Below are positions 23,081-47,830 of a stretch of DNA of 64,000 nucleotides, piece by piece; within the stretch, counting starts at the first letter, position 1; the number at the start of each line of letters is the position of its first letter. The notes beneath the pieces were generated by a model. The model made no database searches. It saw only the letters and a list, made by a program, of their open reading frames with translations, and had not been told where the DNA came from. The stretch is from Candidatus Magasanikbacteria bacterium RIFOXYC2_FULL_42_28 (lineage in GTDB: Bacteria > Patescibacteriota > Patescibacteriia > Magasanikbacterales > GWA2-37-8): assembly GCA_001784435.1 (NCBI GenBank), contig MFQZ01000010.1, positions 105,960 to 169,959 on the forward strand, written 5' to 3'. Made by a program: the position numbers and the translations under genes.

Positions 23081-23124
23081 TGTGGATAACTTATTTGCCA
23101 AAAGCGGTTGGGGGGGGGGTATAC
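23081..23124 (+). promoter_or_regulatory. conserved promoter module copy 1: TGTGGATAA - TTGCCA(-35) - 18 nt spacer ending in G10 - TATACT(-10)
   Basis: Near-identical modules at 44804, 46537, 47787; G-run at 23109-23118. Confidence 0.45.
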
Positions 23125-23163
23125 TTATATGGAGAAAAATTTTATTTTTAATTTTTTAAAAAT

Positions 23164-23658
23164 ATGCGATCAGAAATTTCTTCTGAAGTGAGAGGCAAAA
23201 ACACGGATGTGGCGGTAGATAAATTACGAGAATATTTAGCTACTCATTATAGTTATACAAATGAAGATGGGGCTGATTCTGTAATTAACGAAAGAGATGC
23301 CGCCTCTGTTGTGGCGCTGTTTCCAGAGCTCTCAGTGGCTGTTGTCAGTGAAGAAATTAGGAAAAATAATCAATGGAACGAAGAAACTCGAGACAACAAA
23401 GTACAAAATAGAGAAATCTTTTTGAAAACATTAGACGGAGAAATTAAAACTTATGAAGATGCCGTACGAATGTTTCCGTCATTGCATGCGGAAGAAATTT
23501 TAGATTCTTTTGCTTGTGGACAATCTGGGATTCTAGAAAGAAAAATAAAAGATGGTAGTATCATGACAACGGAGCAGTGTGAGAAGGAATTTCAATGGCT
23601 GTTAATAAATTCACCAGTTAGATATGGGCAGGCGTTGTTATACTTATCACAAAAATAA
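23164..23658 (+). CDS. hypothetical protein (cargo gene behind promoter module 1)
   Basis: ORF with ATG about 40 nt downstream of the module; acidic, no TM or signal peptide. Confidence 0.45.
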   Translation: MRSEISSEVRGKNTDVAVDKLREYLATHYSYTNEDGADSVINERDAASVVALFPELSVAVVSEEIRKNNQWNEETRDNKVQNREIFLKTLDGEIKTYEDAVRMFPSLHAEEILDSFACGQSGILERKIKDGSIMTTEQCEKEFQWLLINSPVRYGQALLYLSQK

Positions 23659-23747
23659 TAAGTGAATTAAAGTAGGTAATTAATCGGAGTGTTTACTTGT
23701 CTTTGGTAGTTGTAGGTAAATATTTAAAATTTTAATTTTAATTTAAT

Positions 23748-24335
23748 ATGTCGCCTGACAAAAACAGTTCAGTAGATCATTCTGTTATTTTTGAAAAAGC
23801 AAAAAATGTAGCAAATTTACATTTAGAAAGTCCAAGAGGAATAATGGATAACGACAAACGACAACTTGAGACAGCAATTGGTATTGGGTCGCCTGAAGGT
23901 TTGTTCAAACTAACACCTGAAGCAACCATGGTAATGATTGAAAATTCTGCCGAAGAACTAGCTAAAGGTTTTAGCAGTGCGAAGTTTTTAGAATTGGCGC
24001 GTTTTTTGATTGGAAAACCATCCAGCAATGTAGATGGGAGTTGGAGCAACCAACCGTTATTGGACGCGTTAGATAAAGTTGAAAAAGGTGATTTAGCCGG
24101 TATCCAAGAGTTGGAGGGATTGTACGAAAAGTCAAAACATAGAGATGAAGATGAATACACTGGAGATTCACGGATAAATTCACAAGTATTGATCGTCGCA
24201 AAGACTGTGGCTGGACAAATAGGTGCAGCTCAAGCATTGCGTGAAATTGCAAGAGCGTCCTCGTATGGGAGCATGGGTCAAAATATAGGAACAGCAGCAA
24301 ATAGAAAAATTTTAGAGATGGCACTTAGGGCGTAA
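23748..24335 (+). CDS. hypothetical protein
   Basis: 195 aa ORF, no recognisable motif. Confidence 0.4.
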   Translation: MSPDKNSSVDHSVIFEKAKNVANLHLESPRGIMDNDKRQLETAIGIGSPEGLFKLTPEATMVMIENSAEELAKGFSSAKFLELARFLIGKPSSNVDGSWSNQPLLDALDKVEKGDLAGIQELEGLYEKSKHRDEDEYTGDSRINSQVLIVAKTVAGQIGAAQALREIARASSYGSMGQNIGTAANRKILEMALRA

Positions 24336-24390
24336 GAATAAGCCACTGCAAGTTCAGCGTATTTATTGTATTGATAACTTTAGCACACTT

Positions 24391-24442
24391 ACAAAAAACC
24401 GGCCTCTAAAAAGCCGGTTTAATTTTGGGATTGGGCCGGCGA
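24391..24442. repeat. 52-bp direct repeat copy 1 (acaaaaaaccggcctctaaaaagccggtttaattttgggattgggccggcg), contains a terminator-like hairpin
   Basis: Near-identical copy at 25322-25374. Confidence 0.75.
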
Positions 24443-24450
24443 CAGAAGTG

Positions 24451-24696
24451 TCAGCCGGCCTTGGGGGTGGGATGGGCGAGCGTGGTGTTACGAAGCGGAT
24501 GCTTCGCGCGCCATGAGCGGGTGGGAGCGGTGCGGTAGCTTCTCCCGCAATCCTGGCACTTATCGGCCTGGATTACGGTGCCGTAACCAGAGTATAGTAC
24601 CTCCATGTAGGTTTTTTGTTCGCACCAGTGGCAGAACTTACAACCGGTCTCCATCTCACACCTCCTTACCTCAAATTCTCTCATCATCATCATCAT
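24451..24696 (-). CDS. Cys-rich zinc-ribbon protein (GC-rich ORF), function unknown
   Basis: CKFCHWC...CQDCG cysteine pairs; begins with five Met codons, so start is uncertain; locally about 58% GC. Confidence 0.35.
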   Translation of the reverse strand: MMMMMREFEVRRCEMETGCKFCHWCEQKTYMEVLYSGYGTVIQADKCQDCGRSYRTAPTRSWRAKHPLRNTTLAHPTPKAG

Positions 24697-24852
24697 TTGT
24701 CAAATACATGTATTTTCTTAAACAGTAAAAATGTGTTATAATTACTAGCGTTGAGCCAAAAGAAAGCATGCTTTCTTTTGCGAGACGCGAAGTAATTTCA
24801 AGCTCCGCTTATAGTAATATTGAACTAAATTAGCGCAATTTAAAAAAACAAT

Positions 24853-25473
24853 ATGAACGAACCAATTGGAGATACTACCGAAACAACAAAAATCGCTCTT
24901 TTTAAGGGTAGGCAGATTAGAAAAATATTTTATCAGAATGAGTGGTGGTTTTCGGTTGTTGATGTTATTGAAGCGTTAACGGAAACCGAAAGACCGCGAA
25001 AGTATTGGAGTGATTTAAAGAAAAAGTTGATAGCAGAAGGATATTCCGAGTTGTCCGAAAATATCGGACAACTGAAATTGCCGTCAGCGGATGGAAAATT
25101 TTACGAAACTGATTGCGCTAATGCCGAGAGTATTTTTCGTCTGATCCAATCAATTCCCTCACCCAAAGCCGAGCCGTTTAAGCGCTGGCTCGCGAAAGTT
25201 GGTTATGAGCGGGTGCAGGAAATTGAAAATCCAGAATTGGCGGTCAAACGGACTCGCACGCTTTACAAGTTAAAAAGGTATGGTGAAGATTGGATAGAAA
25301 AAATTTTGTTAAATTACATTTACAAAAAACCGGCCTCTAAAAAGCCGGTTTTAATTTTGGGATTGGGCCGGCGGACAGGGGTGCCAATTGACTTATCATT
25401 AAAAATCAGATATAATGGAACCACTAATCTAATATCGCTAATCTTCACGAATAATATTTGTGTTGATTCGTGA
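24853..25473 (+). CDS. Bro-N domain protein (phage antirepressor-like)
   Basis: KIALFKGRQIRKIFYQNEWWFSVVDVIEAL resembles the Bro-N/KilA-N motif; 3' end runs into the second direct-repeat copy. Confidence 0.45.
   Translation: MNEPIGDTTETTKIALFKGRQIRKIFYQNEWWFSVVDVIEALTETERPRKYWSDLKKKLIAEGYSELSENIGQLKLPSADGKFYETDCANAESIFRLIQSIPSPKAEPFKRWLAKVGYERVQEIENPELAVKRTRTLYKLKRYGEDWIEKILLNYIYKKPASKKPVLILGLGRRTGVPIDLSLKIRYNGTTNLISLIFTNNICVDS
25322..25374. repeat. 52-bp direct repeat copy 2
   Basis: tacaaaaaaccggcctctaaaaagccggttttaattttgggattgggccggcg. Confidence 0.75.
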
Positions 25474-25489
25474 TTAAAATTCGTGGTTC

Positions 25490-27505
25490 ATGAATGTATC
25501 CGAACTCGCTCGAAAATTACGCGTCCACCCTAAAAAGCTCTTGGAAATATTGCCGGAGTTTGGTTTTGATATTGGGGCGCGGGCGGTGAAAGTTGATGAT
25601 CGCGTGGCCGAACAGATTACGAAAGCGTGGCGCCGGATTAAATTTGTATTGGAGCAACGCGAGACCCAAGAGCGCGAAAAACAAAAACAATTGGAAAAAG
25701 AACAACGTCAACAAAGTGGGGCGGAAATTGCGGTGCCGTCTTTAATTACGGTGCGCGAATTTGCTGATTTACTCCAAATGCCAATTAATAAATTGATGTT
25801 GGAATTAATGAAGAACGGAATTTTGGCAGCGCAAAATGAAAAAATTGACCGCGTCAGCGCGACGATTATTGCCGAAGAACTTGGGTTCAATGTGCGCGCG
25901 GAAGAAAAATCCACCAACAATGTTGCCGATGATAGTGTCCATACTTCTGATTTAGAAATGGCTTTAAAAGAAGGTGGCACGCCACGCCCACCAGTAGTTG
26001 TCGTAATGGGTCACGTTGACCACGGTAAAACAAAATTATTAGATGCGATTCGTAATACTGATGTGGTCGCTGGCGAAGCCGGTGGTATTACCCAACACAT
26101 TGGCGCGTATCAAGTGATTTGGACTAATCCCAAAACCAAAGAATTAACACCCTTAACTTTTATTGATACTCCGGGCCACGAAGCGTTTACCGTAATGCGT
26201 TCGCGTGGTGCGAAAGTTGCTGACATTGCGATTCTGGTCGTCGCGGCTGATGATGGCGTGAAACCGCAAACCATTGAAGCGATAAATATTATCAAAGCGG
26301 CGAAATTGCCGGTCGTGGTCGCGATTAATAAAATTGACCGCGAGGGTGCGGATTTAAAAAGAACGCGTAATGATTTGTCTCTGCACGGATTAGTTGCCGA
26401 TGATTGGGGCGGCGAAACACCGGTCGTGGAAATTTCGGCCAAGCACAATACTAATATTGATAAGCTATTAGACACGGTGATGCTCGTCGCCGATATGAAC
26501 GCGACGGCTATTTGCGCCGAGCCGAATCGCGCGGCCGCCGGAACGGTAATTGACGCGCGCGTGGACAAAGGTCAGGGGCCGGTCGCGACTGTGCTGGTGC
26601 AAACCGGAACTTTGAAAGTGAATGATCCGCTCGTTATCAACGGCGAAATTTACGGCAAAGTGCGCGCGATGAAAAATTATCGCGGGGAAAATATTTTGAC
26701 AGCGACACCATCCACCCCGATTAGAATTTTAGGTTTTAAAGTGGCTCCCCAGATGGGAGATGTGTTGGATGTGGGCAAATCCGCCGGTGCCAGTGAAGTG
26801 GATTTACGCGCCAAACGCACAGCGCAATCGGGCGCGGAACAACGCACGCCGGTTGTAGTTGATGAAGATGACGAAAATAAACATCAGTGGTATAATGTAG
26901 TGGTGAAAGCCGATGTGCTCGGGTCTTTGGAGGCCTTTATTGCGTCTTTGGAAAAATTAAAAAATGATGAGGTGGGTGTGAAAGTTGTGGGCAAGGGTTT
27001 GGGCAATATCACGGCTGATGATGTGGAATTGGCCAAGACAACCGGCGCGACAATTTATGGTTTTAATGTAAACGCGTCTACGCTGGCTCTCCAAATGATG
27101 GATGTGGCCGGTGTGAAATTTGAAAAAGATAAAATTATTTATAATTTGTTAAATTTAATTAAGAAGCAATTAGAAACAATGTTGAATCCAGAATTAGTAA
27201 CGACGGAACTGGGGAATTTTAAAGTGGTGCAAATTTTCCGCACGGAAAAGAATTTGATGATTGTGGGCGGGCGGGTGGAAATGGGTAAATTAGTACGTGA
27301 TTGTTTCGCGCGCGTTAAACGTGCCGGGGAGATTGTTGGCAAAGGAAAATTAATAAAATTACAATCCGCCAAACAGGATATGAGTGAATTGCCGGCTGGT
27401 AACGAAGGCGGTGTGCAATTTGAAGGCAAGTTGGAATTGGAAGTGGGCGATATTTTGGAAGGATATATTGAGACAAAGAAAGAAAAGAAATTAGTGTTGA
27501 GTTAA
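25490..27505 (+). CDS. infB: translation initiation factor IF-2
   Basis: GTPase motifs [21 protein letters not shown]; IF-2 C-terminal domains. Confidence 0.95.
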
Positions 27506-27512
27506 TCAGGTC

Positions 27513-27825: not shown

Positions 27826-27842
27826 GTTCATCATCACTGGTA

Positions 27843-27887
27843 ATCTTCAATCTTAAATCTTCAATCTTAAATCTTCAATCTTAAATC
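27843..27887. repeat. tandem repeat, 14-bp unit aatcttcaatctta x3, in the trxA 5' UTR
   Basis: Direct tandem copies ending 4 nt before the trxA ATG. Confidence 0.8.
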
Positions 27888-27891
27888 ACAT

Positions 27892-28215
27892 ATGGAACAC
27901 ACATTCACTGACGCTAATTTCGATGCTGAAGTAATTAAATCCGACGTACCAGTGTTAGTCGATTTTTGGGCGCCTTGGTGTGGCCCTTGCCAAATGATGG
28001 GGCCAATCGTGGAAGAGTTGGCCAAAGAAAGCGTTGGCAAAAAATTTAAAATTGGGAAATTAAATGTGGACGATAACCAAAACACGGCCGGGCAATACAA
28101 TGTGATGAGCATTCCGACCTTTTTGGTGTTTAAAGGCGGGCAGGCCGTTGATCAAGTTACCGGCGGTGTGCAAAAAGAAAAATTACAGGAATTGGTGGAT
28201 AAATATAGCAAGTAA
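27892..28215 (+). CDS. trxA: thioredoxin
   Basis: WAPWCGPC active site, 107 aa. Confidence 0.9.
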   Translation: MEHTFTDANFDAEVIKSDVPVLVDFWAPWCGPCQMMGPIVEELAKESVGKKFKIGKLNVDDNQNTAGQYNVMSIPTFLVFKGGQAVDQVTGGVQKEKLQELVDKYSK

Positions 28216-29463: not shown

Positions 29464-30735
29464 ATGTCCCAATCCGCCTTCGATAACGCCATGTCCCAAT
29501 TAGACAAGGCCGCCAAAGTCATGAATTTGGATAAAAATATTCATGAAATTTTAAAATCGCCGGATCGAGTTTTGATTGTTTCGGTGCCGGTTAAAATGGA
29601 TAATGGTGAAGTGAAAGTTTTCACTGGTTATCGCTCGCAATACAACAATGCCATGGGGCCCTACAAAGGTGGTATTCGCTATCATCCGAATGTTTCGTTG
29701 GACGAAGTCAAGGCCTTGTCATTTTGGATGATGATTAAATGCGCGACCGTGAATATTCCGATGGGCGGAGGCAAAGGCGGGATTATTGTTTATCCGAAAG
29801 ATTTATCACATGGGGAATTGGAAAGAATGTCGCGCGGGTATATTCAAAAAATTTATCGGGAAATCGGTTCGGATAAAGATGTGCCGGCGCCGGATATGTA
29901 CACCACTCCGCAAATTATGGGATGGATGCGGGATGAGTTTGAAAAATTAATTGGACGCAAAGATCCGGGTGTAATTACCGGCAAAGCGATTGCTGACGGT
30001 GGCAGTGAAGGGCGTGAGACCGCGACCGCGCAAGGTGGGGTATATGTCGTGCGTGAGCTTGCAAAAAAAATGGGATTAAAACCAAATCTCACCACTGTGG
30101 CCGTTCAAGGCATGGGCAATGTGGGCGGATTTATGGCGAAAATTTTAGCGGCCGATGGTTACAGAATTGTGGCAATTTCTGATTCCAAAGGCGGAGTATA
30201 TAATGAGGCCGGGTTAGATATGGCCAAGGTAGAAGAAATTAAAAAAGCCGGTGGTATGCTCGGGTGCTATTGTTTAGGCAATGTTTGTAAATTAGAAGAA
30301 ATGCCCAAAGATGGCCCGTGCCGGCATGTTTCTAACGAGCAGTTATTGGAATTGCCGGTTGATATTTTGGTGCCGTCGGCTTTAGAAAACCAGATTACCG
30401 AAACCAACGCGAATAATATCAAAGCAAAATATATTATTGAAATGGCGAACGGTCCGACCACGCCGGAGGCGGATGAAATTTTGAAAAGCCGAGGAGTGAT
30501 AGTCGTGCCGGATGTTTTGGCTAATGCCGGTGGTGTTACCGTCAGTTGTTTTGAATGGGAACAAAATGTGAAAGGCGAAAAATGGACCGAGGCGCAAGTA
30601 TTTGCAAAATTAGAACCGATGATGGTGCAGTCATTTAACGAAGTGTGGGAAACAAAAGAAAAATATAATGTGCCAATGCGCACGGCGGCGTTTGTAAAGG
30701 CGATCAAGCGGGTGGCGGCAAAAATGAAGATCTAA
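29464..30735 (+). CDS. gdhA: Glu/Leu/Phe/Val-family glutamate dehydrogenase
   Basis: KGGIRYHP motif; Rossmann motif GMGNVGG. Confidence 0.9.
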   Translation: MSQSAFDNAMSQLDKAAKVMNLDKNIHEILKSPDRVLIVSVPVKMDNGEVKVFTGYRSQYNNAMGPYKGGIRYHPNVSLDEVKALSFWMMIKCATVNIPMGGGKGGIIVYPKDLSHGELERMSRGYIQKIYREIGSDKDVPAPDMYTTPQIMGWMRDEFEKLIGRKDPGVITGKAIADGGSEGRETATAQGGVYVVRELAKKMGLKPNLTTVAVQGMGNVGGFMAKILAADGYRIVAISDSKGGVYNEAGLDMAKVEEIKKAGGMLGCYCLGNVCKLEEMPKDGPCRHVSNEQLLELPVDILVPSALENQITETNANNIKAKYIIEMANGPTTPEADEILKSRGVIVVPDVLANAGGVTVSCFEWEQNVKGEKWTEAQVFAKLEPMMVQSFNEVWETKEKYNVPMRTAAFVKAIKRVAAKMKI

Positions 30736-30743
30736 TTTTTTTG

Positions 30744-30775
30744 TGTCATCCCGATGAAAATCGGGATCTCTGTCT
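30744..30775. repeat. family A repeat (tgtcatcccgatgaaaatcgggatctctgtcta) abutting the mutM start
   Basis: Identical core to the copy in tsaD. Confidence 0.8.
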
Positions 30776-31690
30776 ATGCCCGAACTTCCCGAAGTAGAAA
30801 CAGTTCGCCGTGATTTGGAAAAAGTTTTGGTTGGTAAAAAAATCACGGCAGTAGAAATTTTAGATAAAAAAATTGTCGGCGGTAAACCGGCAGTTTTTGT
30901 GTCGGCTGTAAATGGTAAGAAAATTGTTGGGGTGGAGCGAAGAGGGAAATTATTGGCGTTTAAATTAAGTAGCGGTGAATATTTGTTAGCGCATCTGAAA
31001 ATGACCGGGCAGTTGATTTGTGTTTCATTGTCATTGCGAGCGAAGCGCGGCAATCTCATCGCCGGCGGTCACCAAGTTGGTAAAAACGATTTAACTGTGC
31101 CAAACAAATTCACGCGCGTCATTTTTGCATTTTCCCCTCCTGCCCGAGGAGGGGCGAGGGGTGGTGGGAGCGTTGGTGGCACACTATATTTCAACGACCT
31201 CCGTCGTTTCGGTTATTTAAAAGTTGTATCGGCGGAAGAAAAAGAAACCATATTTAAAAATAATTTTGGTATTGAACCATTGACACCCGATTTTAAATTA
31301 TCAGCTTTTACAAAAATATTTCGAAACCGTAAAACCAATTTAAAAGCGATTTTGATGAATCAAAAATTAATTTCTGGCTTGGGGAATATTTACGTGGACG
31401 AGGCCTGTTTTAACGCTGGACTTTTACCGTGGCGATCGGCTAAGTCACTAAAACCGCCAGAAATTAAAAAATTATTTTCTTGTATTCAAAAAGTAATCGC
31501 CGTGGCCATTAAAAATCGCGGCACCACTTTTAAAGATTTTCGCGATGGCGCGGGTGGGCGCGGGGCGCATTATAATTTTCTTAATGTGTATGGGCGCAAA
31601 GGTGAAAAATGCCGGAAGTGTAAAAATTTTATAAAAAAGACCAAACACGCCGGGCGGGGGACGCATTTTTGTCCGAAATGTCAGCGGTAA
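30776..31690 (+). CDS. mutM: formamidopyrimidine-DNA glycosylase
   Basis: MPELPEVETVRR N terminus, H2TH region and C-terminal zinc finger CRKCKN..C..C; two in-frame repeat insertions. Confidence 0.85.
   Translation: MPELPEVETVRRDLEKVLVGKKITAVEILDKKIVGGKPAVFVSAVNGKKIVGVERRGKLLAFKLSSGEYLLAHLKMTGQLICVSLSLRAKRGNLIAGGHQVGKNDLTVPNKFTRVIFAFSPPARGGARGGGSVGGTLYFNDLRRFGYLKVVSAEEKETIFKNNFGIEPLTPDFKLSAFTKIFRNRKTNLKAILMNQKLISGLGNIYVDEACFNAGLLPWRSAKSLKPPEIKKLFSCIQKVIAVAIKNRGTTFKDFRDGAGGRGAHYNFLNVYGRKGEKCRKCKNFIKKTKHAGRGTHFCPKCQR
31028..31056. repeat. family B repeat in frame inside mutM
   Basis: ttgtcattgcgagcgaagcgcggcaatctc encodes CVSLSLRAKRGNLIAG. Confidence 0.75.
31131..31172. repeat. family C repeat in frame inside mutM
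   Basis: ttttcccctcctgcccgaggaggggcgaggggtggtgggagcg encodes FSPPARGGARGGGSVG. Confidence 0.75.
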
Positions 31691-31752
31691 TTTGCCTTTT
31701 TCCCTATATTTTAGTACAATACGATTACCGTTTAATGGTAATTTTTTGTTAT

Positions 31753-34700
31753 ATGTCAAAATACGATCATAAAAAAATAGAAGCAAAATGGAAGAAAAAT
31801 TGGGAAAAGTCCGGGATATATAAAACCGGCGACCCATCCTTCGCTAAGGATTCGGCGGGCAAGCCCAAGTATTATGTCTTGGACATGTTTCCGTATCCAT
31901 CAGGCGCGGGTTTGCATGTCGGCCACCCCAAGGGTTTTATCGCCACCGACATTGTCGCGCGTTTAAAAATGATGCAAGGGTACAATGTTTTGCACCCGAT
32001 GGGTTGGGACGCGTTTGGGCTACCGGCGGAAAATTATGCTTTGAAAAATAAAGTTCATCCGGCGGACGCGACTGCCGAAAATATTAAAGTTTTTAAAAAA
32101 CAATTAGGCCTTTTGGGTTTTACTTATGATTGGAGCAGGGAAGTGAATACGACTGATCCAGAATATTATAAATGGACCCAGTGGATATTTTTACAATTAT
32201 TTAAAAAGGGTCTGGCGTTTGAATCTTACGAACCGATTAATTGGTGCCCGTCGTGCAAAACCGGTTTGGCTAATGAAGATTTGGAAGATGGGAAATGTGA
32301 GCGCTGTGGGAGCGTGGTAGAACAAAAACCTTTGCGCCAATGGGTATTGAAAATTACCGATTATGCCGAGCGTTTGCTCAATGATATTGAATTATTAAAA
32401 GAATGGCCCGAGCCGATTAAAGAAATGCAGAGAAATTGGATTGGACGCAAGGAGGGTATAAATATCGTATATCAAATTGAGGGGTCGGATAAAAAAGTTA
32501 TTTGTTTCACCACTCGTCCTGACACAAATTTCGGTGCTACTTTTGTTGTGGTTGGCCCGGAACATTCTTTGATTTCATCAATAACAACATCGGAGTATAA
32601 AGAAGATGTAGAAAAATATGTATCCGCCGCTAAAAATAAAACAGAATTAGATAGAATTGCGGAAGGTAGAGAGAAAAGTGGTGTGTTTACCGGTTCGTAT
32701 TGCATAAATAATTTGACTGATTATAAAATGCCGATTTGGGTGGCTGATTATGTGTTAGGCAATGTAGGAACTGGCATGGTAGTAGGTGTGCCGGGACATG
32801 ATAAACGCGATTTTGAATTTGCCAATAAATTTGGTATTGAAATAAAAAGAGTGGTGGTGGCCGGTGATGGTGATACGTCGCCTATTACTAAAATAGAACA
32901 GGTGCAGGAACATGAAGGGGAAATGATAAATTCTGGATTTTTGGATGGTTTAGATATTCACGATGCTACACGTAAGATAATGGATCGTTTAGAAGAAAAA
33001 GGATGGGGTAAGCGAGTGATTAATTATAAATTACGCGATTGGGTTTTTTCGCGCCAACGTTATTGGGGGGAGCCGATACCGCTCGTGCATTGTGAAGTGT
33101 GCAAAAATAAAAAATATAATTACATTATTTTACACGGATATACCGGTACGGCCGATCAAAATGGACCGGGTAGAGGCGATTCTAATAATTGGCGCCCGTG
33201 GGTAAAAGTTAAATTAGAAGAACGTGGCAATAAAGTTTTTTGTCCTAATCTTCCAAACACTAATGAACCAAATATAGATGAACAAGTGCAATATGTTATA
33301 GACAATGTTAATTTTGAGATAGACGAAAACACGGTTATAGTTGGGCATAGTTTGGGTGGAGTAGTGATATATAAACTGTTGGAAAAATTAAATAAGAAAG
33401 TTGGCAAAGTATTGTTAGTTGATCCGGTAGTAAGTCCCGAGTTTCCGGACAAAGAAAGACTAAATGTAAAAAAGAGTTGTGACTGGAAATTTAATTTTGA
33501 GAAGATAAAAAAATTAAGTGATGATTTTGTTGTTTTGGGTGCGTCTGATTTTGCGACTATCTTTGAAAAAGATTTAAGATTTGTGGCCGATAAACTGGAA
33601 GCAAATTTAGTTTTAGCTAAACCAGCGGAAGGGCATTTTACAGCTGAAGAAGAGCCGGTCGTATTAAATTTATTAAATAATACTGGCTGGTACCCAGTCC
33701 CAGAAAAAGACCTGCCACTTGAATTGCCAAAAGTAAAAAATTATGAACCGACTGGAACCGGGGAATCGCCACTCGCGGGAATTGATAAGTGGGTGAATAC
33801 ATTATGTCCTCATTGTGGCGGGCCGGCGAAACGTGAAACCAATACCATGCCACAGTGGGCGGGGAGTTGTTGGTATTATTTGCGCTATGAAGATCCGCAT
33901 AACAGTAAAGCACTCGTGGATAAAGATAAAGAAAAATATTGGTCGCCGGTGGATTTTTATGTTGGTGGCGCCGAACACGCCACGCGCCATTTAATTTACG
34001 CGCGGTTTTGGCATAAGTTTTTATTTGATATTGGGGCGGTTAGCAATATTGAGCCGTTTACCAAATTACAAAGTGTGGGTTTGATTCTGGCCGAAGACGG
34101 GCGCAAGATGAGTAAGCGTTGGAATAATGTAATTAATCCCGATGATGTTGTGGCTGAATTTGGCGCGGACGCGATGCGTTTGTATGAAATGTTTATGGGG
34201 CCATTTGATCAGGCTTGCGCTTGGAGTACGAAAGGTGTGATTGGGTGTCGGCGGTTTTTGGAAAAGGTTTGGGTGCTGGGCGAGAAGATTAAAGATGAAA
34301 GATTGAAGATTAATGGTGATAATAATAAAAATATTGAGATATTATTAAACCAAACAATCAAAAAAGTTACCGAAGACATTCCAGCGATGCGATTTAACAC
34401 GGCCATCGCGCAACTGATGATTTTTGCGAATGAGGCTTCACAATCTTCTATCTTAAATCTTCAATCTTTCGCTTCATTCCTCCAACTTCTCGCTCCATTT
34501 GCTCCGCATATGACAGAAGAGCTGTGGGCAAATTTAGGCAACAAAGAAAGTATTTTTAAATCCGCGTGGCCGAAATTTGACCCCACCAAAATTCAACATT
34601 CCGAAATTACCGTCGTCGTTCAAGTAAACGGTAAGCTGCGCGATGAAATAATTGTGCCAGTTGATATTGCCGAAGCCGATGCCAAAGCGCGGGCGCTTTC

Positions 34701-34788
34701 AACAGAAAAAATTAAAAAATGGTTAGATGGCAAAGAGCCGAAGAAAGTGATTTATGTGAAAGGGAAGCTCGTGAGTATAGTGGTGTAG
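31753..34788 (+). CDS. leuS: leucine--tRNA ligase with an embedded alpha/beta serine-hydrolase domain
   Basis: HIGH region (HVGHPKG), CP1 editing motifs TTRPDT and GTGMVVGVPGHDKRDFEFA, KMSKR; start at ATG 31753 (MSKYDHKKIEAKW); about 190 aa longer than a typical bacterial LeuS. Confidence 0.9.
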   Translation: MSKYDHKKIEAKWKKNWEKSGIYKTGDPSFAKDSAGKPKYYVLDMFPYPSGAGLHVGHPKGFIATDIVARLKMMQGYNVLHPMGWDAFGLPAENYALKNKVHPADATAENIKVFKKQLGLLGFTYDWSREVNTTDPEYYKWTQWIFLQLFKKGLAFESYEPINWCPSCKTGLANEDLEDGKCERCGSVVEQKPLRQWVLKITDYAERLLNDIELLKEWPEPIKEMQRNWIGRKEGINIVYQIEGSDKKVICFTTRPDTNFGATFVVVGPEHSLISSITTSEYKEDVEKYVSAAKNKTELDRIAEGREKSGVFTGSYCINNLTDYKMPIWVADYVLGNVGTGMVVGVPGHDKRDFEFANKFGIEIKRVVVAGDGDTSPITKIEQVQEHEGEMINSGFLDGLDIHDATRKIMDRLEEKGWGKRVINYKLRDWVFSRQRYWGEPIPLVHCEVCKNKKYNYIILHGYTGTADQNGPGRGDSNNWRPWVKVKLEERGNKVFCPNLPNTNEPNIDEQVQYVIDNVNFEIDENTVIVGHSLGGVVIYKLLEKLNKKVGKVLLVDPVVSPEFPDKERLNVKKSCDWKFNFEKIKKLSDDFVVLGASDFATIFEKDLRFVADKLEANLVLAKPAEGHFTAEEEPVVLNLLNNTGWYPVPEKDLPLELPKVKNYEPTGTGESPLAGIDKWVNTLCPHCGGPAKRETNTMPQWAGSCWYYLRYEDPHNSKALVDKDKEKYWSPVDFYVGGAEHATRHLIYARFWHKFLFDIGAVSNIEPFTKLQSVGLILAEDGRKMSKRWNNVINPDDVVAEFGADAMRLYEMFMGPFDQACAWSTKGVIGCRRFLEKVWVLGEKIKDERLKINGDNNKNIEILLNQTIKKVTEDIPAMRFNTAIAQLMIFANEASQSSILNLQSFASFLQLLAPFAPHMTEELWANLGNKESIFKSAWPKFDPTKIQHSEITVVVQVNGKLRDEIIVPVDIAEADAKARALSTEKIKKWLDGKEPKKVIYVKGKLVSIVV
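33105..33690 (+). other. YdeN/RBBP9-like alpha/beta serine hydrolase domain inserted within LeuS
   Basis: IILHGYTG...NWRPWVK...VIVGHSLGG (nucleophile elbow)...LGASDF...AEGHF (Ser-Asp-His candidates); sits between PIPLVHCEVC and the C-terminal CPHCGG...WYYLRY region. Confidence 0.6.
34441..34475. repeat. short tandem-repeat-like insert (caatcttctatcttaaatcttcaatcttt) in frame in the leuS 3' region
   Basis: Same aatcttcaatctta motif as the trxA upstream tandem repeat; encodes SQSSILNLQSF. Confidence 0.6.
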
Positions 34789-39310: not shown

Positions 39311-39325
39311 AATATTTATTAATAA

Positions 39326-39440
39326 TTTCAAAATCCAAATTTCCAATTTCCAAATTAATGTCTAAGCTAAAATAACAAATTTGACATTTAGATTTTGGAT
39401 TTTGTTTGACATTGGATATTGGATATTTGACATTTAAATT
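39326..39440. repeat. family D AT-rich palindromic element
   Basis: caaaatccaaatttccaatttccaaa ... tttgacattggatattggatatttgacattt; produces spurious MEIWIL ORFs. Confidence 0.7.
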
Positions 39441-42344: not shown

Positions 42345-42587
42345 GAGTAAGATTACAGTCCAAGCCGGTAGTAACGGCAGACGCTTTGGCTCGCCAGCGC
42401 TTACGTCTACACCTTGACAGGCATAGATATAAGCACATCTGGACGACCACAAGGGTCTGCCATTGTTGCCGGCTTTTTTATTTAATTTTAGCCAAAGTTT
42501 ACAGGGTGTAGCGTAGCGAAGCCTGTGGATAAGTATTATAAAAATATCCTTGACATGTCGGTTTTTTGTGTTAAAATGATACTGTAA

Positions 42588-42614
42588 TTATCACTCGTTG
42601 GGTCGGAGTGATAA
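42588..42614 (+). promoter_or_regulatory. CIRCE-like HrcA operator (TTATCACTC-N9-GAGTGATAA)
   Basis: Matches the CIRCE consensus TTAGCACTC-N9-GAGTGCTAA with one substitution per arm, 28 nt upstream of groES; TTGACA -35 box at 42550. Confidence 0.7.
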
Positions 42615-42642: not shown

Positions 42643-44612
<1,970 letters not shown>

Positions 44613-44730: not shown

Positions 44731-44764
44731 AAAAATAATCGACCGCTCGGTCGGTTATTTTTTT
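44731..44764 (+). terminator. conserved terminator module T (aaaaataatcgaccgctcggtcggttatttttt), copy 1
   Basis: Perfect hairpin plus T-run; identical copies at 46498 and 47715; degenerate copy at 50138. Confidence 0.7.
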
Positions 44765-44803
44765 GTTTGCCTTGCAAGGCCATAGCCCGCAGGGCGACGG
44801 CTT

Positions 44804-44849
44804 GTGGATAACTTTATTTGCCAAATACGGTCGGGGGGGGGGGTATACT
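44804..44849 (+). promoter_or_regulatory. conserved promoter module copy 2: TGTGGATAA - TTGCCA - 20 nt spacer ending in G11 - TATACT
   Basis: G-run at 44833-44843. Confidence 0.45.
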
Positions 44850-44884
44850 TAATTACGAGAGAATTTATTATTAATTATAAAATT

Positions 44885-45814
44885 ATGCCAGAAATAAAAG
44901 CGGGTTACATTCCGCAGGAGTCACGTGGGTCGTCTGAATTAGAACAACAGGCAATTGTGGACAGCGCGACAGATTTGATATTAAAAACATTGAATAGGCA
45001 CCTTGATAAAGATCATGCGCCAAAAATACCTGATCAAGAGAAAATAAAGAAAGCATTAATTTTGTTAATGGCGGGAAAAAATGTACATAATGAAATAACG
45101 ATTCCAACAACTACAGAAAGCAGAGGACGTTTTGATGGCGCGAACTCTGCCAAATGGTATCCAAATGTATTGGTGGCTCTACATGAAGCAGTAGGTGACA
45201 AACCAAGACGATTGACAATTCAATTCAATCATCAGTCCGACGCAGAAGAGTCGGAGGAAGTCTGTGCTAGACATATTAGTGGTGCCCGGCCGATGGATAA
45301 GCCAATAATACAATCAATAGTTATTCCACCATCATATTCCAAAGAGGAAAAGACAATAATGACTAGTCGACGCAAGTCAGCTGTTAGTTTAGAAGATAGT
45401 GGTGCTGTGCCCGTCCAAGATGTCGGAGCGGATAAGCGGCGCTTAGAAGTAACTCGTTCGCAAGTTGAAAAGGCGCGTGGGGAGATGTTTAAAGATATTG
45501 GTACAAGCGAAGATGGTTCAAGGGGTTATTTTTCAGAGTATATTGGACCTGATCGTGATAGTATGAGTAAAGGCAAAATATTGTCTAAGCGAGACAGACA
45601 ATATGTCGCCAAATTGTCAGAAATTAGCGGAAAATTACTAGAGTTAGATAAAGTAATTGATAGCAAGTCGAGTGCTAGCGCGGTGAAGAAGGCGGAAGCT
45701 AAACATTTGAAATTAAGGCAAGAGGCCCGGATTATTATCGATAATTATGATCAAGAAGATCGCCATGCCTTCGAAAATGGTATGGCTGGGGTTCGGCCCA
45801 CAGTCGAATATTAA
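44885..45814 (+). CDS. hypothetical protein (cargo gene behind module 2)
   Basis: ATG 44885 (MPEIKAGY) about 35 nt after the -10 box; hydrophilic, no motif. Confidence 0.45.
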   Translation: MPEIKAGYIPQESRGSSELEQQAIVDSATDLILKTLNRHLDKDHAPKIPDQEKIKKALILLMAGKNVHNEITIPTTTESRGRFDGANSAKWYPNVLVALHEAVGDKPRRLTIQFNHQSDAEESEEVCARHISGARPMDKPIIQSIVIPPSYSKEEKTIMTSRRKSAVSLEDSGAVPVQDVGADKRRLEVTRSQVEKARGEMFKDIGTSEDGSRGYFSEYIGPDRDSMSKGKILSKRDRQYVAKLSEISGKLLELDKVIDSKSSASAVKKAEAKHLKLRQEARIIIDNYDQEDRHAFENGMAGVRPTVEY

Positions 45815-46006
45815 AACAGTATAATTGATTTATAAAAACGGATTTAAATATCCGTTTTTTAGTTAAAAAATGTATGAGTTGTATTAGCTATTTCGTGATT
45901 AGGGATTTTAATCTTTTGATTTTATTGGGTTCTTGACAAAAAGTAAGAAATATGATACAATAAGAATGTAGTAAAGTAATACTTTCTTACTCATCAATTT
46001 TATTTT

Positions 46007-46243
46007 ATGGAAACTACTGTTCAAAAAACCACCACCAAAGGCCAAATCACTTTGCCCAAACACTGGCGCGATCAGTTTAAAACCAATCATTTCGCCATGA
46101 TGCCGCAGGATGATTTTTTGATTATTCGGCCGTTGTCGTTGGATGACGAGGATAATTATATTAGTGTGTTTGACGCCAAACGCGACAATCGGGGCAAAGG
46201 TATGCCAGCTAAAAAGTTATTGAAAATTTTAAAGTCCGTTTAA
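46007..46243 (+). CDS. AbrB/MazE/SpoVT-type antitoxin
   Basis: TTKGQITLPKHWRDQF looped-hinge motif; precedes a RelE toxin with 1-nt spacing. Confidence 0.6.
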   Translation: METTVQKTTTKGQITLPKHWRDQFKTNHFAMMPQDDFLIIRPLSLDDEDNYISVFDAKRDNRGKGMPAKKLLKILKSV

Positions 46244-46244
46244 A

Positions 46245-46487
46245 ATGGACAAGATTAAAAAATTATTTAAGAAATTATCCGCAACCGACCGAATTGCTTT
46301 GGCAGCAGCGTTGGAATTATTAGTCGCGAATAACTTGGAGGGGTTGGATATAAAAAAGTTGGCCGGTGGTAATTTATGGCGTTTGCGCGTTGGTAATTTT
46401 CGGATTATTTTTAAACGCCATAACGCTGAAAATATTGTTTACGAAATTCGTCGGCGTGATGAGAATACTTATAAAGGATTAGTTTGA
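46245..46487 (+). CDS. relE: RelE/ParE-family toxin
   Basis: GNLWRLRVGNFRIIFKRHNAENIVYEIRRRDENTY matches the ..YRLRVGDYRIIY.....I.IL.IGHR consensus. Confidence 0.65.
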   Translation: MDKIKKLFKKLSATDRIALAAALELLVANNLEGLDIKKLAGGNLWRLRVGNFRIIFKRHNAENIVYEIRRRDENTYKGLV

Positions 46488-46497
46488 TTGTGATAAT

Positions 46498-46531
46498 CAA
46501 AAATAATCGACCGCTCGGTCGGTTATTTTTT
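46498..46531 (+). terminator. terminator module T, copy 2
   Basis: aaaaataatcgaccgctcggtcggttattttttt. Confidence 0.7.
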
Positions 46532-46536
46532 TATCT

Positions 46537-46580
46537 GTGCATAACTTATTTGACAAATATCGTCGGGGGGGGGGTATGCT
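46537..46580 (+). promoter_or_regulatory. conserved promoter module copy 3: TGTGCATAA - TTGACA - 19 nt spacer ending in G10 - TATGCT
   Basis: G-run at 46565-46574. Confidence 0.45.
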
Positions 46581-46628
46581 ATAAGCAAATTATGAATTGT
46601 TAAAAATTTGTTAAATATAAAAAATAAT

Positions 46629-47243
46629 ATGGAAAAATTCAATCCATCAAATCCGAAGTATAAAAAAGTTGCAGATTTACCACGTGCGCGGAGGGAAAAA
46701 TTTGTTGATGTTGAAACCGGAGGATTTGTGCGAAAAAGCGCAGATGAAATTTTTTTTGAAGCCGAAAAAGAAGCAGTTCGTAATGAGGATGTAGTAGTTC
46801 ATGAGTATGGGCGTCGTCTCCCCAGAGAGAATAATCCACAAGACATTTTACAAGAGCAAGCCGTTGATTTGGAAAACTACAGGAAAGCAATATTAACCAA
46901 TCCCAAAAAGTATTTTTGGCTTAGCGACGACAAAAGGGAGCAATTTTTTAGGGGGGATGATTTTTTGGATGATAAAGAAGTTATGATGCAAGTTCTGAAG
47001 CATGTTAGAGACGCTGGTATTATTAGAAAGTTATCACCTCGATTGCAACAAGACAGGGAGGTCATTTTGGCGGCACTTCGTGGCCCTCTTAGCAATGGAG
47101 ATAATTTTTATAGTTATAGTGGAGGGATTCATCATGAATTTAAAGCGGCTCAATTAGTTCCACAAGATATGTTGGATGATCCTGAAATTAAAAAAGCCAT
47201 TGATGAATATGATACACCTGATGACCTGCCCGGATCAGCATAG
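46629..47243 (+). CDS. hypothetical protein (cargo gene behind module 3)
   Basis: ATG 46629 (MEKFNPSNPKYKK); hydrophilic. Confidence 0.45.
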   Translation: MEKFNPSNPKYKKVADLPRARREKFVDVETGGFVRKSADEIFFEAEKEAVRNEDVVVHEYGRRLPRENNPQDILQEQAVDLENYRKAILTNPKKYFWLSDDKREQFFRGDDFLDDKEVMMQVLKHVRDAGIIRKLSPRLQQDREVILAALRGPLSNGDNFYSYSGGIHHEFKAAQLVPQDMLDDPEIKKAIDEYDTPDDLPGSA

Positions 47244-47309
47244 ATTATAAAATTAAACACCGACAGGTAGCTGGTTTTTTATAATCTGTAAAAGCACTAC
47301 GGTAGACTG

Positions 47310-47459
47310 ATGATGATACCGCAGGATGATTTTTTGATTATCAGGCCGTTGTCTTTGGACGATGAAGATAATCATATTAGCGTTTTTGATGCCAAGCGCG
47401 ATAATCGCGGTCAAGGCATTCCGGCTAAAAAATTATTGAAAATTTTAAAGTCCGTTTAA
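47310..47459 (+). pseudogene. 5'-truncated duplicate of the AbrB-type antitoxin (lacks the DNA-binding N terminus)
   Basis: MMIPQDDFLIIRPLSLDDEDNHISVFDAKRDNRGQGIPAKKLLKILKSV aligns with the C-terminal 49 aa of 46007-46243. Confidence 0.6.
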
Positions 47460-47460
47460 A

Positions 47461-47703
47461 ATGGATAAGATTAAAAAGTTATTTAAAAAATTATCCACAA
47501 CCGACCGCGTTGCTTTGGCAGAAGCGTTGGAATTATTGGCCGTGAATAATTTGGAAGGGTTGGACATAAAAAAGTTGGCCGGTGGTAATTTATGGCGTTT
47601 GCGCGTTGGTAATTTTCGGATTATTTTTAAACGCCATAACGCTGAAAATATTGTTTACGAAATTCGTCGGCGTGATGAGAATACTTATAAAGGATTAGTT
47701 TGA
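47461..47703 (+). CDS. relE: RelE/ParE-family toxin, second copy
   Basis: 75 of 80 aa identical to 46245-46487 (about 94%). Confidence 0.65.
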   Translation: MDKIKKLFKKLSTTDRVALAEALELLAVNNLEGLDIKKLAGGNLWRLRVGNFRIIFKRHNAENIVYEIRRRDENTYKGLV

Positions 47704-47714
47704 TTGTGATAATC

Positions 47715-47748
47715 AAAAATAATCGACCGCTCGGTCGGTTATTTTTTT
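47715..47748 (+). terminator. terminator module T, copy 3
   Basis: aaaaataatcgaccgctcggtcggttattttttt. Confidence 0.7.
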
Positions 47749-47786
47749 GTCTGCTTGCAGTGAATCGGCCGTAGGCCTGGTTCACT

Positions 47787-47830
47787 GTGCATAACTTATT
47801 TGCCAAACACGGTCGGGGGGGGGGTATACT
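47787..47830 (+). promoter_or_regulatory. conserved promoter module copy 4: TGTGCATAA - TTGCCA - 19 nt spacer ending in G10 - TATACT
   Basis: G-run at 47815-47824. Confidence 0.45.

What the first reader, a model, noticed from the sequence alone, without database searches (positions are those of the whole stretch)
23081..47830. Four copies of a conserved promoter module with a poly-G tract in the -35/-10 spacer, driving unrelated genes
The modules at 23081-23124, 44804-44849, 46537-46580 and 47787-47830 share TGTG(G/C)ATAAC-TTATT-TGCCAAA / TTGACA (-35), a spacer that ends in G10, G11, G10 and G10 respectively, and a TATACT/TATGCT -10 box. The total spacers are 18, 20, 19 and 19 nt, straddling the optimal 17. 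Homopolymeric tracts in promoter spacers are the classic slipped-strand phase-variation switch, as in Neisseria porA and opc or Mycoplasma vlp. Here the four downstream ORFs (23164, 44885, 46629, 47863) are unrelated small hydrophilic proteins. That suggests a family of variably expressed cargo genes behind a shared switch.
Basis: partly seen in the sequence, partly recalled or inferred. Interest (0 to 1): 0.75.

Follow-up and report, generated by a model that had tools for sequence, protein, structure and literature searches.

The report
Poly-G promoter cassette in CPR bacterium
An uncultivated groundwater bacterium (Candidatus Magasanikbacteria) carries four copies of a ~45-bp portable promoter whose spacer holds a pure run of 10-11 G's, placed in front of orphan accessory genes; it looks like the slipped-strand on/off switches known from pathogens, but switching has not been shown.

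Summary
The four modules are real (23081-23125, 44803-44849, 46536-46580, 47786-47830, all + strand). Each reads TGTG[G/C]ATAAC, TT(T)A, TTG[C/A]CA, 9 nt, G10/G11/G10/G10, TAT[A/G]CT. True spacers are 19, 20, 19 and 19 nt, all longer than the 16-17 nt of this genome's ordinary sigma-70-type promoters. The window is chromosome of Candidatus Magasanikbacteria RIFOXYC2_FULL_42_28 (CPR), not a phage. Modules 2-4 lie in a lineage-specific island inserted after groEL, built from repeated terminator, module, orphan gene and toxin-antitoxin units. Module 1 follows a HicAB pair. The sister genome lacks the modules. The box, -35 and -10 elements are 91-93% conserved between copies, the rest of the spacer is 56% conserved, and the G tract is never interrupted. 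Tract lengths are identical in all 3-5 Rifle assemblies of each locus. A homologous module in Hainich aquifer metagenomes shows G9, G10 and G11 at one orthologous locus, but at only 3-4x coverage. Best reading: a portable promoter with a hypermutable spacer tract, like porA, opc and vlp, sitting in a low or off state. The promoter identity is well supported. Phase variation is plausible but unproven. Two cargo proteins (P2, P4) are distant homologues, so not all are unrelated.

The parts
23081..23125 (+). Module 1: box TGTGGATAAC, -35 TTGCCA (23095-23100), 19-nt spacer ending in G10 (23110-23119), -10 TATACT (23120-23125)
   Evidence: G10 in 3 of 3 other assemblies
44803..44849 (+). Module 2: box TGTGGATAAC, -35 TTGCCA (44818-44823), 20-nt spacer ending in G11 (44833-44843), -10 TATACT (44844-44849)
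   Evidence: G11 in 3 of 3 other assemblies; one contig (L048) starts inside this tract
46536..46580 (+). Module 3: box TGTGCATAAC, -35 TTGACA (46550-46555), 19-nt spacer ending in G10 (46565-46574), -10 TATGCT (46575-46580)
   Evidence: G10 in 4 of 4 other assemblies
47786..47830 (+). Module 4: box TGTGCATAAC, -35 TTGCCA (47800-47805), 19-nt spacer ending in G10 (47815-47824), -10 TATACT (47825-47830)
   Evidence: G10 in 5 of 5 other assemblies
44731..44762 (+). Conserved intrinsic terminator (AAAAATAATCGACC-gctc-GGTCGGTTATTTTT) after groEL, upstream of module 2
   Evidence: fold -16.2 kcal/mol, z = -7.4; also present after groEL in the sister genome
46499..46530 (+). Second copy of the terminator, between toxin gene 1 and module 3
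47715..47746 (+). Third copy of the terminator, between toxin gene 2 and module 4
47757..47788 (+). Strong hairpin immediately 5' of the module 4 box; its 3' arm overlaps CTGT of the box
   Evidence: fold -20.1 kcal/mol, z = -4.3. The analogous hairpin before module 2 (44767-44797) is weaker (z = -1.5). Modules 1 and 3 have no convincing hairpin.
23164..23658 (+). Cargo 1 (P1): 164-aa soluble orphan protein
   Evidence: no Pfam, PHROG or PADLOC hit. In another strain it lies behind a helicase gene with no module (L005/L006).
44885..45814 (+). Cargo 2 (P2): 309-aa soluble orphan; its C-terminal half is homologous to P4
   Evidence: no relative among 1.84 billion representative proteins
46629..47243 (+). 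Cargo 3 (P3): 204 aa with one DUF4116 repeat
47863..48396 (+). Cargo 4 (P4): 177-aa soluble orphan, homologous to P2
   Evidence: no homologue other than itself
46007..46487 (+). MazE/AbrB-like antitoxin (46007-46243) and RelE/ParE-like toxin (46245-46487), with their own canonical promoter TTGACA-17-TACAAT at 45933
   Evidence: the same pair follows groEL in the sister genome
47310..47703 (+). Duplicated TA unit: truncated antitoxin (49 aa) and intact toxin; 89% identical to the first copy
   Evidence: repeat D1
22442..22931 (+). HicB antitoxin and HicA toxin pair immediately upstream of module 1
48586..49776 (+). AAA_14/DUF4143 ATPase (PADLOC candidate PDC-S01) at the distal end of the island
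   Evidence: it directly follows groEL in a relative with 87% GroEL identity
49764..50027 (+). Relic copy of the groEL 3' end (85% identical to 44340-44561), marking the far edge of the inserted island
   Evidence: repeat D3
42524..42577 (+). Native comparison promoter: TGTGGATAA box, 17 nt, then TTGACA-16-TAAAAT, upstream of groES-groEL, followed by a CIRCE-like inverted repeat
19519..19572 (-). Native comparison promoter: hairpin, then TGTGGATAAC box, then TAGCCA-17-TATAAT, upstream of the HU gene

Best explanation
Each module is a compact, portable sigma-70-type promoter. It has an upstream TGTGNATAAC box, a -35 TTGNCA and a -10 TATNCT. The spacer contains an uninterrupted G9-G11 run that makes it 18-20 nt long, against the 16-17 nt this organism normally uses.

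The module has been copied in front of mobile, orphan, soluble-protein genes. These genes sit in accessory islands rich in toxin-antitoxin pairs and defence candidates, in groundwater CPR bacteria.

A G run this long slips during replication, so tract length, and with it promoter strength, should drift in single-base steps. The dominant G10/G11 alleles would be weak or off. Rare contractions to about G7-G8 (16-17 nt) would turn a gene on. That would give stochastic, heritable and reversible expression, i.e. a contingency locus.

Shown here: the anatomy, the copy number, the conservation pattern, the lineage-specific and mobile distribution, and tract-length differences between copies and between assemblies of one orthologous locus.

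Inferred: that it is the active promoter, that tract length controls expression, and that switching is frequent and adaptive.
For: (1) Four copies, far beyond chance, and the only G or C runs of 8 or more in 64 kb.

(2) Conservation matches a promoter. Mean pairwise identity is 0.91 for the box, 0.92 for the -35 block and 0.93 for the -10. It is 0.56 for the 7 variable spacer nucleotides and 0.33 for the 12 nt after the -10. The G tract is 100% pure in all five aligned copies. The chance of 9 invariant columns, if they evolved like the rest of the spacer, is about 1e-5.

(3) Each module lies after a terminator or hairpin and 28-50 nt before an ATG.

(4) The genome's ordinary gene-proximal promoters have 16-17-nt spacers, with a mode of 17 (9 sites). 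Examples are TTGACA-17-TATAAT at 48513 and TTGACA-17-TACAAT at 45933.

(5) The same box/-35/-10 architecture occurs with a 16-nt spacer and no G tract in two other MAGs, one Moraniibacteriota and one labelled Gammaproteobacteria. The box also precedes the native groES and HU promoters.

(6) Length differences between copies are confined to the tract: G9, G10, G10, G10, G11.

(7) An orthologous Hainich locus with identical or 97%-identical cargo is assembled as G9 (2 contigs), G10 (2 contigs) and G11 (1 contig). In L041 versus L039, the extra G is the only difference in about 2.3 kb. No other homopolymer of 7 or more differs.

(8) Precedent: a G9-G11 tract between -35 and -10 of meningococcal porA gives 2.2-fold and 13-fold expression steps. 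It switches at about 5e-5 in wild type and about 1000-fold faster without mutS (PMC3639595).
Against: - All 15 observations from independent Rifle assemblies show the same locus-specific length: M1 G10 (3), M2 G11 (3), M3 G10 (4), M4 G10 (5). These include contigs of about 1x coverage.
- The Hainich length differences come from contigs of 3-4x coverage. One of them, L040, has three extra substitutions clustered just after the tract, which is typical of Illumina error after G runs.
- No allele with a 16-17-nt spacer has been seen, so an 'on' state is hypothetical.
- G at -14 and -13 is kept at any tract length and could give partial extended -10 activity independent of spacing.
- The cargo proteins are cytoplasmic orphans, not the surface or restriction-modification genes typical of contingency loci.
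- The two Hainich cargo alleles show pN/pS of about 1, based on only 10 differences.
- There are no transcript data.
Confidence: 0.5

Rival explanations
1. Fixed, deliberately weak or spacing-independent promoter. The module is a genuine promoter, but the G tract is a structural spacer element. It could be a rigid G:C block, or G at -14 acting as a partial extended -10. It sets a constant low expression level for potentially toxic accessory genes, and length changes are rare and have no regulatory role.
For: Locus-specific tract lengths are identical in every Rifle assembly. GGG immediately upstream of the -10 is kept whatever the tract length. All alleles fall in a narrow 18-20-nt range. In L038 the -35 is shifted by 1 nt without obvious consequence.
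Against: A G9-G11 run is intrinsically slippage-prone in every system studied (PMC3639595). A fixed spacer function does not need an uninterrupted homopolymer, yet purity is kept while the neighbouring spacer bases diverge. Lengths do differ between copies and between Hainich assemblies.
Confidence: 0.25
2. Non-adaptive by-product. A G run in the spacer of a mobile promoter expanded by mutational bias, perhaps in a lineage with poor mismatch repair. It has largely silenced selfish, recently transferred orphan genes. Any variation is neutral noise.
For: All spacers are longer than optimal. The cargo genes are orphans with no relatives. pN/pS is about 1 between the Hainich alleles. Other G runs in this lineage also differ in length between strains: G7 at window 50055 against G9 in L028. 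Modules are absent from the sister genome.
Against: The box, -35 and -10 remain 91-93% conserved across copies whose flanks have diverged strongly, and across two aquifers on two continents. A dead promoter should decay and its tract should pick up interruptions.
Confidence: 0.15
3. The conserved block is primarily a recombination or mobility site, the 5' end of a gene cassette. Its resemblance to a promoter is secondary.
For: Homology between copies, and between the two Hainich alleles, begins sharply at CTGTG[G/C]ATAAC. Cargo and modules occur in different genomic contexts at 99-100% identity (L005/L006, L010/L011, L034).
Against: No integrase, transposase or other recombinase appears among the Pfam-scanned ORFs around either locus. 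There is no inverted copy of the box at the cassette 3' ends. The variant junctions map to the repeated terminator rather than to the module. The box also occurs upstream of fixed housekeeping promoters.
Confidence: 0.05

Closest known systems
Neisseria meningitidis porA promoter (poly-G between -35 and -10); likewise opc and fetA (poly-C)
   Same: An uninterrupted G9-G11 homopolymer inside the -35/-10 spacer of a sigma-70-type promoter. Single-base length changes would alter hexamer spacing (PMC3639595).
   Different: In porA, as I recall, the tract lengths give near-optimal or shorter spacing, and 11G is the high state. Here every allele gives 18-20 nt, longer than optimal, so the observed state would be low or off. 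The cargo is cytoplasmic orphan proteins rather than an outer-membrane antigen. The host is an environmental CPR bacterium. Switching and the expression effect are not demonstrated.
Mycoplasma hyorhinis vlp gene family (poly-A tract in the promoter spacer of each vlp gene; recalled from memory, Citti and Wise 1995)
   Same: Several genes in one cluster each carry their own copy of a highly conserved promoter region with a homopolymer in the spacer, which allows independent switching of each gene.
   Different: The vlp genes are paralogous surface lipoproteins sharing a signal peptide. Here the cargo genes are mostly unrelated, soluble, and separable from the module (P1 occurs without it). The tract is G, not A.
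Bordetella pertussis fim2/fim3 promoters (poly-C tract between the activator site/-35 region and the -10; from memory)
   Same: A homopolymer sets the distance between an upstream conserved protein-binding element and the -10. The conserved TGTGNATAAC box here could play the role of the activator site.
   Different: No activator is known here. The box matches the DnaA-box consensus, but binding is untested.
Putative mobile promoters / promoter propagation in prokaryotes (Matus-Garcia et al. 2012; from memory)
   Same: A short promoter-bearing sequence is found in several copies upstream of non-homologous genes within one genome and in related genomes.
   Different: As far as I recall, those elements were not described with a hypermutable tract in the spacer.

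Membership tests
Homopolymer-tract phase-variable promoter (porA/opc/vlp type) | [quoted passage not shown] | tested here: met
   G10, G11, G10 and G10 lie inside TTGNCA...TATNCT in the window. Hainich alleles carry G9-G11.
Homopolymer-tract phase-variable promoter (porA/opc/vlp type) | The flanking hexamers are the functional promoter of the downstream gene (mapped start site) | not testable with these tools
   Only sequence evidence is available: 5-6 of 6 and 4-5 of 6 hexamer matches, a conservation pattern like a promoter, and a position after a terminator and before an ATG.
Homopolymer-tract phase-variable promoter (porA/opc/vlp type) | Tract length differs between cells, isolates or samples at the same locus | tested here: inconclusive
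   Hainich orthologous locus: G9, G10 and G11 in five contigs at 3-4x coverage. Rifle loci: no difference in 15 of 15 assembly-level observations. No read-level data.
Homopolymer-tract phase-variable promoter (porA/opc/vlp type) | Tract length changes expression, reversibly and at high frequency | not testable with these tools
   Needs reporters, transcriptomics or culture. Spacers of 18-20 nt against the genomic norm of 16-17 only predict an effect.
vlp-type multigene family | Cargo genes are paralogous surface lipoproteins with a shared signal sequence | tested here: not met
   No hydrophobic segment (maximum Kyte-Doolittle 19-aa window 1.41 or less). Only P2 and P4 are related.
DnaA box | 9-mer matching TTATNCACA | tested here: met
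   All four modules match on the - strand. There are 8 sites in the window against 3.1 expected, and none of 100 shuffles reached 8.
DnaA box | Bound by DnaA, with a regulatory effect | not testable with these tools
   The box also precedes the groES and HU promoters and two promoters in other MAGs. It may be a general upstream element.
Integron gene-cassette array | Adjacent tyrosine-recombinase integrase (IntI) and attI | tested here: not met
   No integrase or recombinase domain in any Pfam-scanned ORF of the window.
Integron gene-cassette array | attC imperfect palindromes at the 3' end of each cassette | tested here: not met
   The repeated hairpin is a perfect 14-bp stem followed by a T run, i.e. 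an intrinsic terminator, and it is also present after groEL in the sister genome.
Known RNA families (Rfam 15) | Covariance-model match over the module or its leader | tested here: not met
   Nothing at gathering score. The sub-threshold hits are only the terminator hairpins.

The most novel reading that the evidence does not exclude
Candidate Phyla Radiation bacteria possess contingency loci. A roughly 45-60-bp mobile promoter cassette carries a hypermutable poly-G spacer, and it is spliced in front of horizontally exchanged orphan genes in islands rich in toxin-antitoxin pairs and defence candidates. Each gene would then be switched stochastically and independently within the population. The module family spans two aquifers on two continents. 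This would be the first promoter-tract phase variation described in CPR/Patescibacteria, and an example of a transferable switch rather than a gene-bound one.
Probability: 0.35. Interest if true: 0.7.

Novelty: new member of a known kind. Interest (0 to 1): 0.5.

Why it matters
Simple-sequence contingency loci are known almost entirely from host-adapted pathogens. The library searched here returned no paper linking phase-variable promoters with CPR/Patescibacteria. If the tract does switch these genes, it would show that ultra-small, regulator-poor, uncultivated bacteria use mutational switches for population-level bet-hedging. It would also show that the switch itself is a portable cassette that can be placed in front of newly acquired genes. 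It points to a set of orphan genes that are probably costly or conditionally useful, possibly in phage or host interaction. The question can be settled cheaply from existing Rifle and Hainich reads.

Tried and rejected
- **Phage origin:** no megablast match in 50,697 phage records and no module in IMG/VR. The gene content is a bacterial chromosome.
- **Sequencing or assembly artefact for the tract itself:** rejected. The tract has conserved unique flanks on both sides and is reproduced in 15 contigs from at least five read sets.
- **ECF-sigma reading** (AAC ... CGTC just before the tract): the would-be -10 is not conserved (CGGTT, CGGTC, TCGTC, CGGTC, CTGTC) and the spacing is irregular, so I dropped it.
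- **CRP- or dif-like palindrome in the box:** no dyad symmetry.
- **Integron attC interpretation of the hairpins:** rejected (see the membership test).
- **Upstream hairpin as a universal module part:** only modules 4 and (weakly) 2 have one; modules 1 and 3 and the Hainich copy do not.
- **Known RNA element:** none.
- **Function of the cargo:** no Pfam, PHROG or PADLOC hit except DUF4116 in P3. P4 and P2 have no homologues in 5.8 billion and 1.84 billion proteins. I did not attempt structure prediction because no alignment depth is available.
- **More copies:** none in 8.7 kb beyond the left edge of the window. The GTDB-representative and JGI scans found only one further true homologue, the Hainich locus.
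- **Strain variants L010/L011** (module 4 directly after a sister-type groEL flank): these come from contigs of about 1x coverage joined at a 26-nt shared repeat and may be chimeric, so I treat them as suggestive only.

Full report
**1. What is in the sequence**

Reading the four sites and parsing them by script confirms a shared + strand block. It reads (C/T)TGTG[G/C]ATAAC, TT(T)A, TTG[C/A]CA, nine bases (AANNNCGTY-like), a pure G run, then TAT[A/G]CT.

| Module | Coordinates | G tract |
|---|---|---|
| 1 | 23081-23125 | 23110-23119 (G10) |
| 2 | 44803-44849 | 44833-44843 (G11) |
| 3 | 46536-46580 | 46565-46574 (G10) |
| 4 | 47786-47830 | 47815-47824 (G10) |

G9+TAT occurs four times against 0.35 expected, and none of 100 shuffles reached four. 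These are the only G or C runs of 8 or more in the window.

The spacers between the hexamers are 19, 20, 19 and 19 nt.

**2. Genomic setting**

The window is not a phage (no match). It encodes PheRS, DnaE, TsaD, RNase Y, TruB, IF-2, GDH, Fpg, LeuRS, ComEC, NusA, YidC and GroES/EL, plus two tRNAs and a SAM riboswitch. Exact protein matches identify it as Candidatus Magasanikbacteria bacterium RIFOXYC2_FULL_42_28, a CPR bacterium from the Rifle aquifer.

Modules 2-4 lie in a 5.1-kb island between the groEL stop (44612) and a relic copy of the groEL 3' end (49764-50027, 85% identical). The layout of the island is:

- terminator, module 2, P2, MazE/RelE-type TA pair with its own canonical promoter
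- terminator, module 3, P3, duplicated TA pair with a truncated antitoxin
- terminator, module 4, P4
- an AAA_14/DUF4143 ATPase (PADLOC candidate PDC-S01)

The terminator is a 14-bp stem followed by a T run (z = -7.4). Module 1 follows a HicAB pair. It precedes P1, a second orphan gene, and a Bro-N protein (PDC-S13) just before infB.

**3. Evidence that it is a promoter**

- The genome contains textbook sigma-70-type promoters, such as TTGACA-17-TATAAT at 48513, TTGACA-17-TACAAT at 45933 and TTGATT-17-TATAAT at 50168.
- Among promoter-like sites just upstream of genes, the spacer mode is 17 nt, with 16 next.
- In an alignment of the four modules with a Hainich homologue, mean pairwise identity is 0.91 for the box, 0.92 for the -35 block and 0.93 for the -10. 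It falls to 0.56 for the seven variable spacer bases and 0.33 for the 12 nt after the -10. This is the pattern expected of a promoter.
- A scan of 185,579 species-representative genomes that did not require a G tract found the same box/-35/TATACT arrangement in a Moraniibacteriota MAG and one other MAG. Both have 16-nt spacers and no G run, and both lie upstream of short structured transcripts and tRNA genes.
- Inside the window, the TGTGGATAA box also precedes the groES promoter (TTGACA-16-TAAAAT, followed by a CIRCE-like repeat) and the HU promoter (TAGCCA-17-TATAAT).

The box is the reverse complement of the DnaA-box consensus, with 8 sites against 3.1 expected. Whether DnaA or another factor binds it cannot be tested here.

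So the architecture is native to CPR promoters. What is special about the modules is the G tract and the over-long spacer it creates.

**4. Is the tract variable?**

Between copies, the only length differences from -35 to -10 lie in the tract (G9, G10, G10, G10, G11). The tract is never interrupted, even though the neighbouring spacer bases have diverged. If those nine columns evolved like the rest of the spacer, the chance of all being invariant is about 1e-5.

At the Rifle loci, independent assemblies (JGI 3300002209, ERZ27254748/50/52, ERZ4902888, ERZ28563808, and Logan SRR2090171 and SRR3989339) always give the same length:

| Module | Tract | Assemblies agreeing |
|---|---|---|
| M1 | G10 | 3 of 3 |
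| M2 | G11 | 3 of 3 |
| M3 | G10 | 4 of 4 |
| M4 | G10 | 5 of 5 |

. All 30 comparisons of homopolymers of 8 or more agree.

A metagenome scan found one true homologue, in the Hainich aquifer in Germany. It reads TGTGCATAAC-TTTA-TTTGTCAAA-GCCTGTC-G9-TATACT. It drives a 209-aa orphan gene inserted between a Cas2/PaaX_M-like gene and secE-nusG-rplK.

Looking up that cargo protein in other assemblies gave five contigs of the same locus:

| Contig | Source | Tract |
|---|---|---|
| L042 | well H51, replicate 1 | G9 |
| L039 | MAG GCA_964366855.1 | G9 |
| L040 | well H51, replicate 2 | G10 |
| L041 | well H51, replicate 3 | G10 |
| L038 | well H32 (cargo 97% identical, different upstream gene) | G11 |

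L041 differs from L039 by the extra G alone over about 2.3 kb. No other homopolymer of 7 or more differs.

There are caveats. Coverage is only 3-4x. L040 carries three further substitutions right after the tract, which looks like post-homopolymer Illumina error. One Rifle contig (L048) begins inside the module 2 tract. That would fit read disagreement or coverage drop-out there, but it proves neither.

Overall, tract polymorphism is indicated but not established.

**5. Mobility**

- The sister genome RIFOXYD2_FULL_41_14 (GroEL 98% identical, about 87% at DNA level) has groEL, the same terminator, and then the TA promoter directly, with no module or cargo.
- A relative at 87% GroEL identity has groEL followed directly by the ATPase.
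- P1 occurs with an identical coding sequence behind a helicase gene and without the module, in contigs from two further assemblies, ERZ4902888 and ERZ28563808, which may derive from the same reads (L005/L006).
- L034 diverges from the window right at the third terminator. L010/L011 join a sister-type groEL flank to module 4 and P4 at 100% identity, but these are contigs of about 1x coverage and could be chimeric.
- Homology between the two Hainich alleles starts exactly at CTGTGCATAAC.

The module and its cargo are therefore recent, exchangeable accessory DNA. No recombinase was found nearby.

**6. Cargo**

P1-P4 and the Hainich protein are soluble and highly charged, with no hydrophobic segment. 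None has a PHROG or PADLOC hit, and Pfam gives only DUF4116 in P3. P4 and P2 have no relatives in 5.8 billion and 1.84 billion proteins respectively.

P2 and P4 are distant homologues of each other (31% identity over 128 aa, E = 5e-8), which corrects the claim that the cargo genes are unrelated. The Hainich alleles differ at 10 of 630 nt, with pN/pS about 1, which is too few changes to be informative.

**7. Interpretation**

The best-supported reading is a portable sigma-70-type promoter whose spacer contains a slippage-prone G tract, which holds it 1-3 nt beyond the organism's optimal spacing. By analogy with porA, single-base slippage should tune expression stepwise. In porA, 11G, 10G and 9G differ 2.2-fold and 13-fold in expression, and the switch rate is about 5e-5, rising about 1000-fold without mutS (PMC3639595). 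The prevailing G10/G11 alleles would then be low or off states.

My confidence that the block is a promoter is about 0.85. My confidence that tract slippage is a functional switch is about 0.5.

The rivals are a fixed weak or extended -10-like promoter (0.25), a neutral or decaying by-product of G-run expansion on selfish cassettes (0.15), and a recombination site (0.05).

**8. Novelty and score**

The mechanism class is classical (porA, opc, vlp, fim). The host phylum, the over-long spacing, the soluble orphan cargo and the apparent portability of the switch are new details. Library searches found no report linking phase-variable promoters to CPR/Patescibacteria. I classify it as a new member of a known kind, with interest 0.5. 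It is a clean, real feature, and the hypothesis is directly testable on existing reads, but the key functional claim is still unproven.

Noticed in passing
window 3216-3257, 15326-15367, 30733-30774, 52611-52652, 55786-55808 (repeat families D8/D9); 2286-2315, 22972-23001, 31027-31056 (D16); 22026-22064, 50103-50141, 56279-56317 (D14): There are several families of short REP-like hairpin repeats, e.g. TGTCATCCCGATGAAAATCGGGATCTCTGTC and ATTGTCATTGCGAGCGAAGCGAAGCAATCT. Some copies lie inside long ORFs of essential genes (pheT, tsaD, truB) rather than between genes, which suggests in-frame insertions into coding sequence.
   Followed up: no
window 7343-7455, 39323-39439, 53782-53878, 55822-55937; also 27842-27896: Long low-complexity intergenic blocks are built from CCAAAT/ATTTGG-type units. 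Family D2 is followed by its reverse-complement-like family D4, giving large AT-rich palindromes between genes. There is also a 14-nt tandem AATCTTCAATCTTA array.
   Followed up: no
window 48468-48496, 50168-50196, 52081-52109: A second repeated promoter family (D12) reads TTGATT-17-TA(C/T)AAT. Its -35 is fused to the T run of the preceding terminator. It lies upstream of the ATPase, an orphan gene and the Sm_multidrug_ex gene.
   Followed up: partly
window 5627-5726 (+): A SAM riboswitch (63 bits) lies upstream of a 267-aa ORF (5878-6681) that has no Pfam family on record in the contig annotation.
   Followed up: no
window 31669-34788 (+): The leucyl-tRNA synthetase carries an inserted alpha/beta-hydrolase (Ser_hydrolase) domain at residues ~486-660. 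The sister genome's LeuRS additionally has a NUDIX domain.
   Followed up: no
window 42588-42614 (+): A CIRCE-like perfect inverted repeat, TTATCACTC-N9-GAGTGATAA, lies just downstream of the groES promoter. This implies HrcA-type heat-shock control in this CPR genome.
   Followed up: no
window 49764-50027 and 50144-50177: A relic of the groEL 3' end and a degenerate copy of the groEL terminator mark the distal edge of the inserted island. The relic C-terminal tail (…[20 protein letters not shown]) differs from the tail of the live groEL gene.
   Followed up: partly
window 50055 (G7) versus L028 11671 (G9): A G run in the hairpin downstream of groEL differs in length between strains, so G-run length polymorphism in this lineage is not confined to the promoter modules.
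   Followed up: no
window ~57600-64000: No ORF of 131 aa or more is listed here. The likely reason is a giant gene that runs off the end of the window; the sister genome has a 2767-aa protein at the equivalent place after a TSP3_bac-domain gene.
   Followed up: no
L012 2144-2260; L013 (- strand) just downstream of 1204: The promoters in other MAGs that have the same box/-35/-10 but no G tract drive short hairpin-rich transcripts ending in terminators, upstream of tRNA genes. These may be unannotated small RNAs.
   Followed up: no
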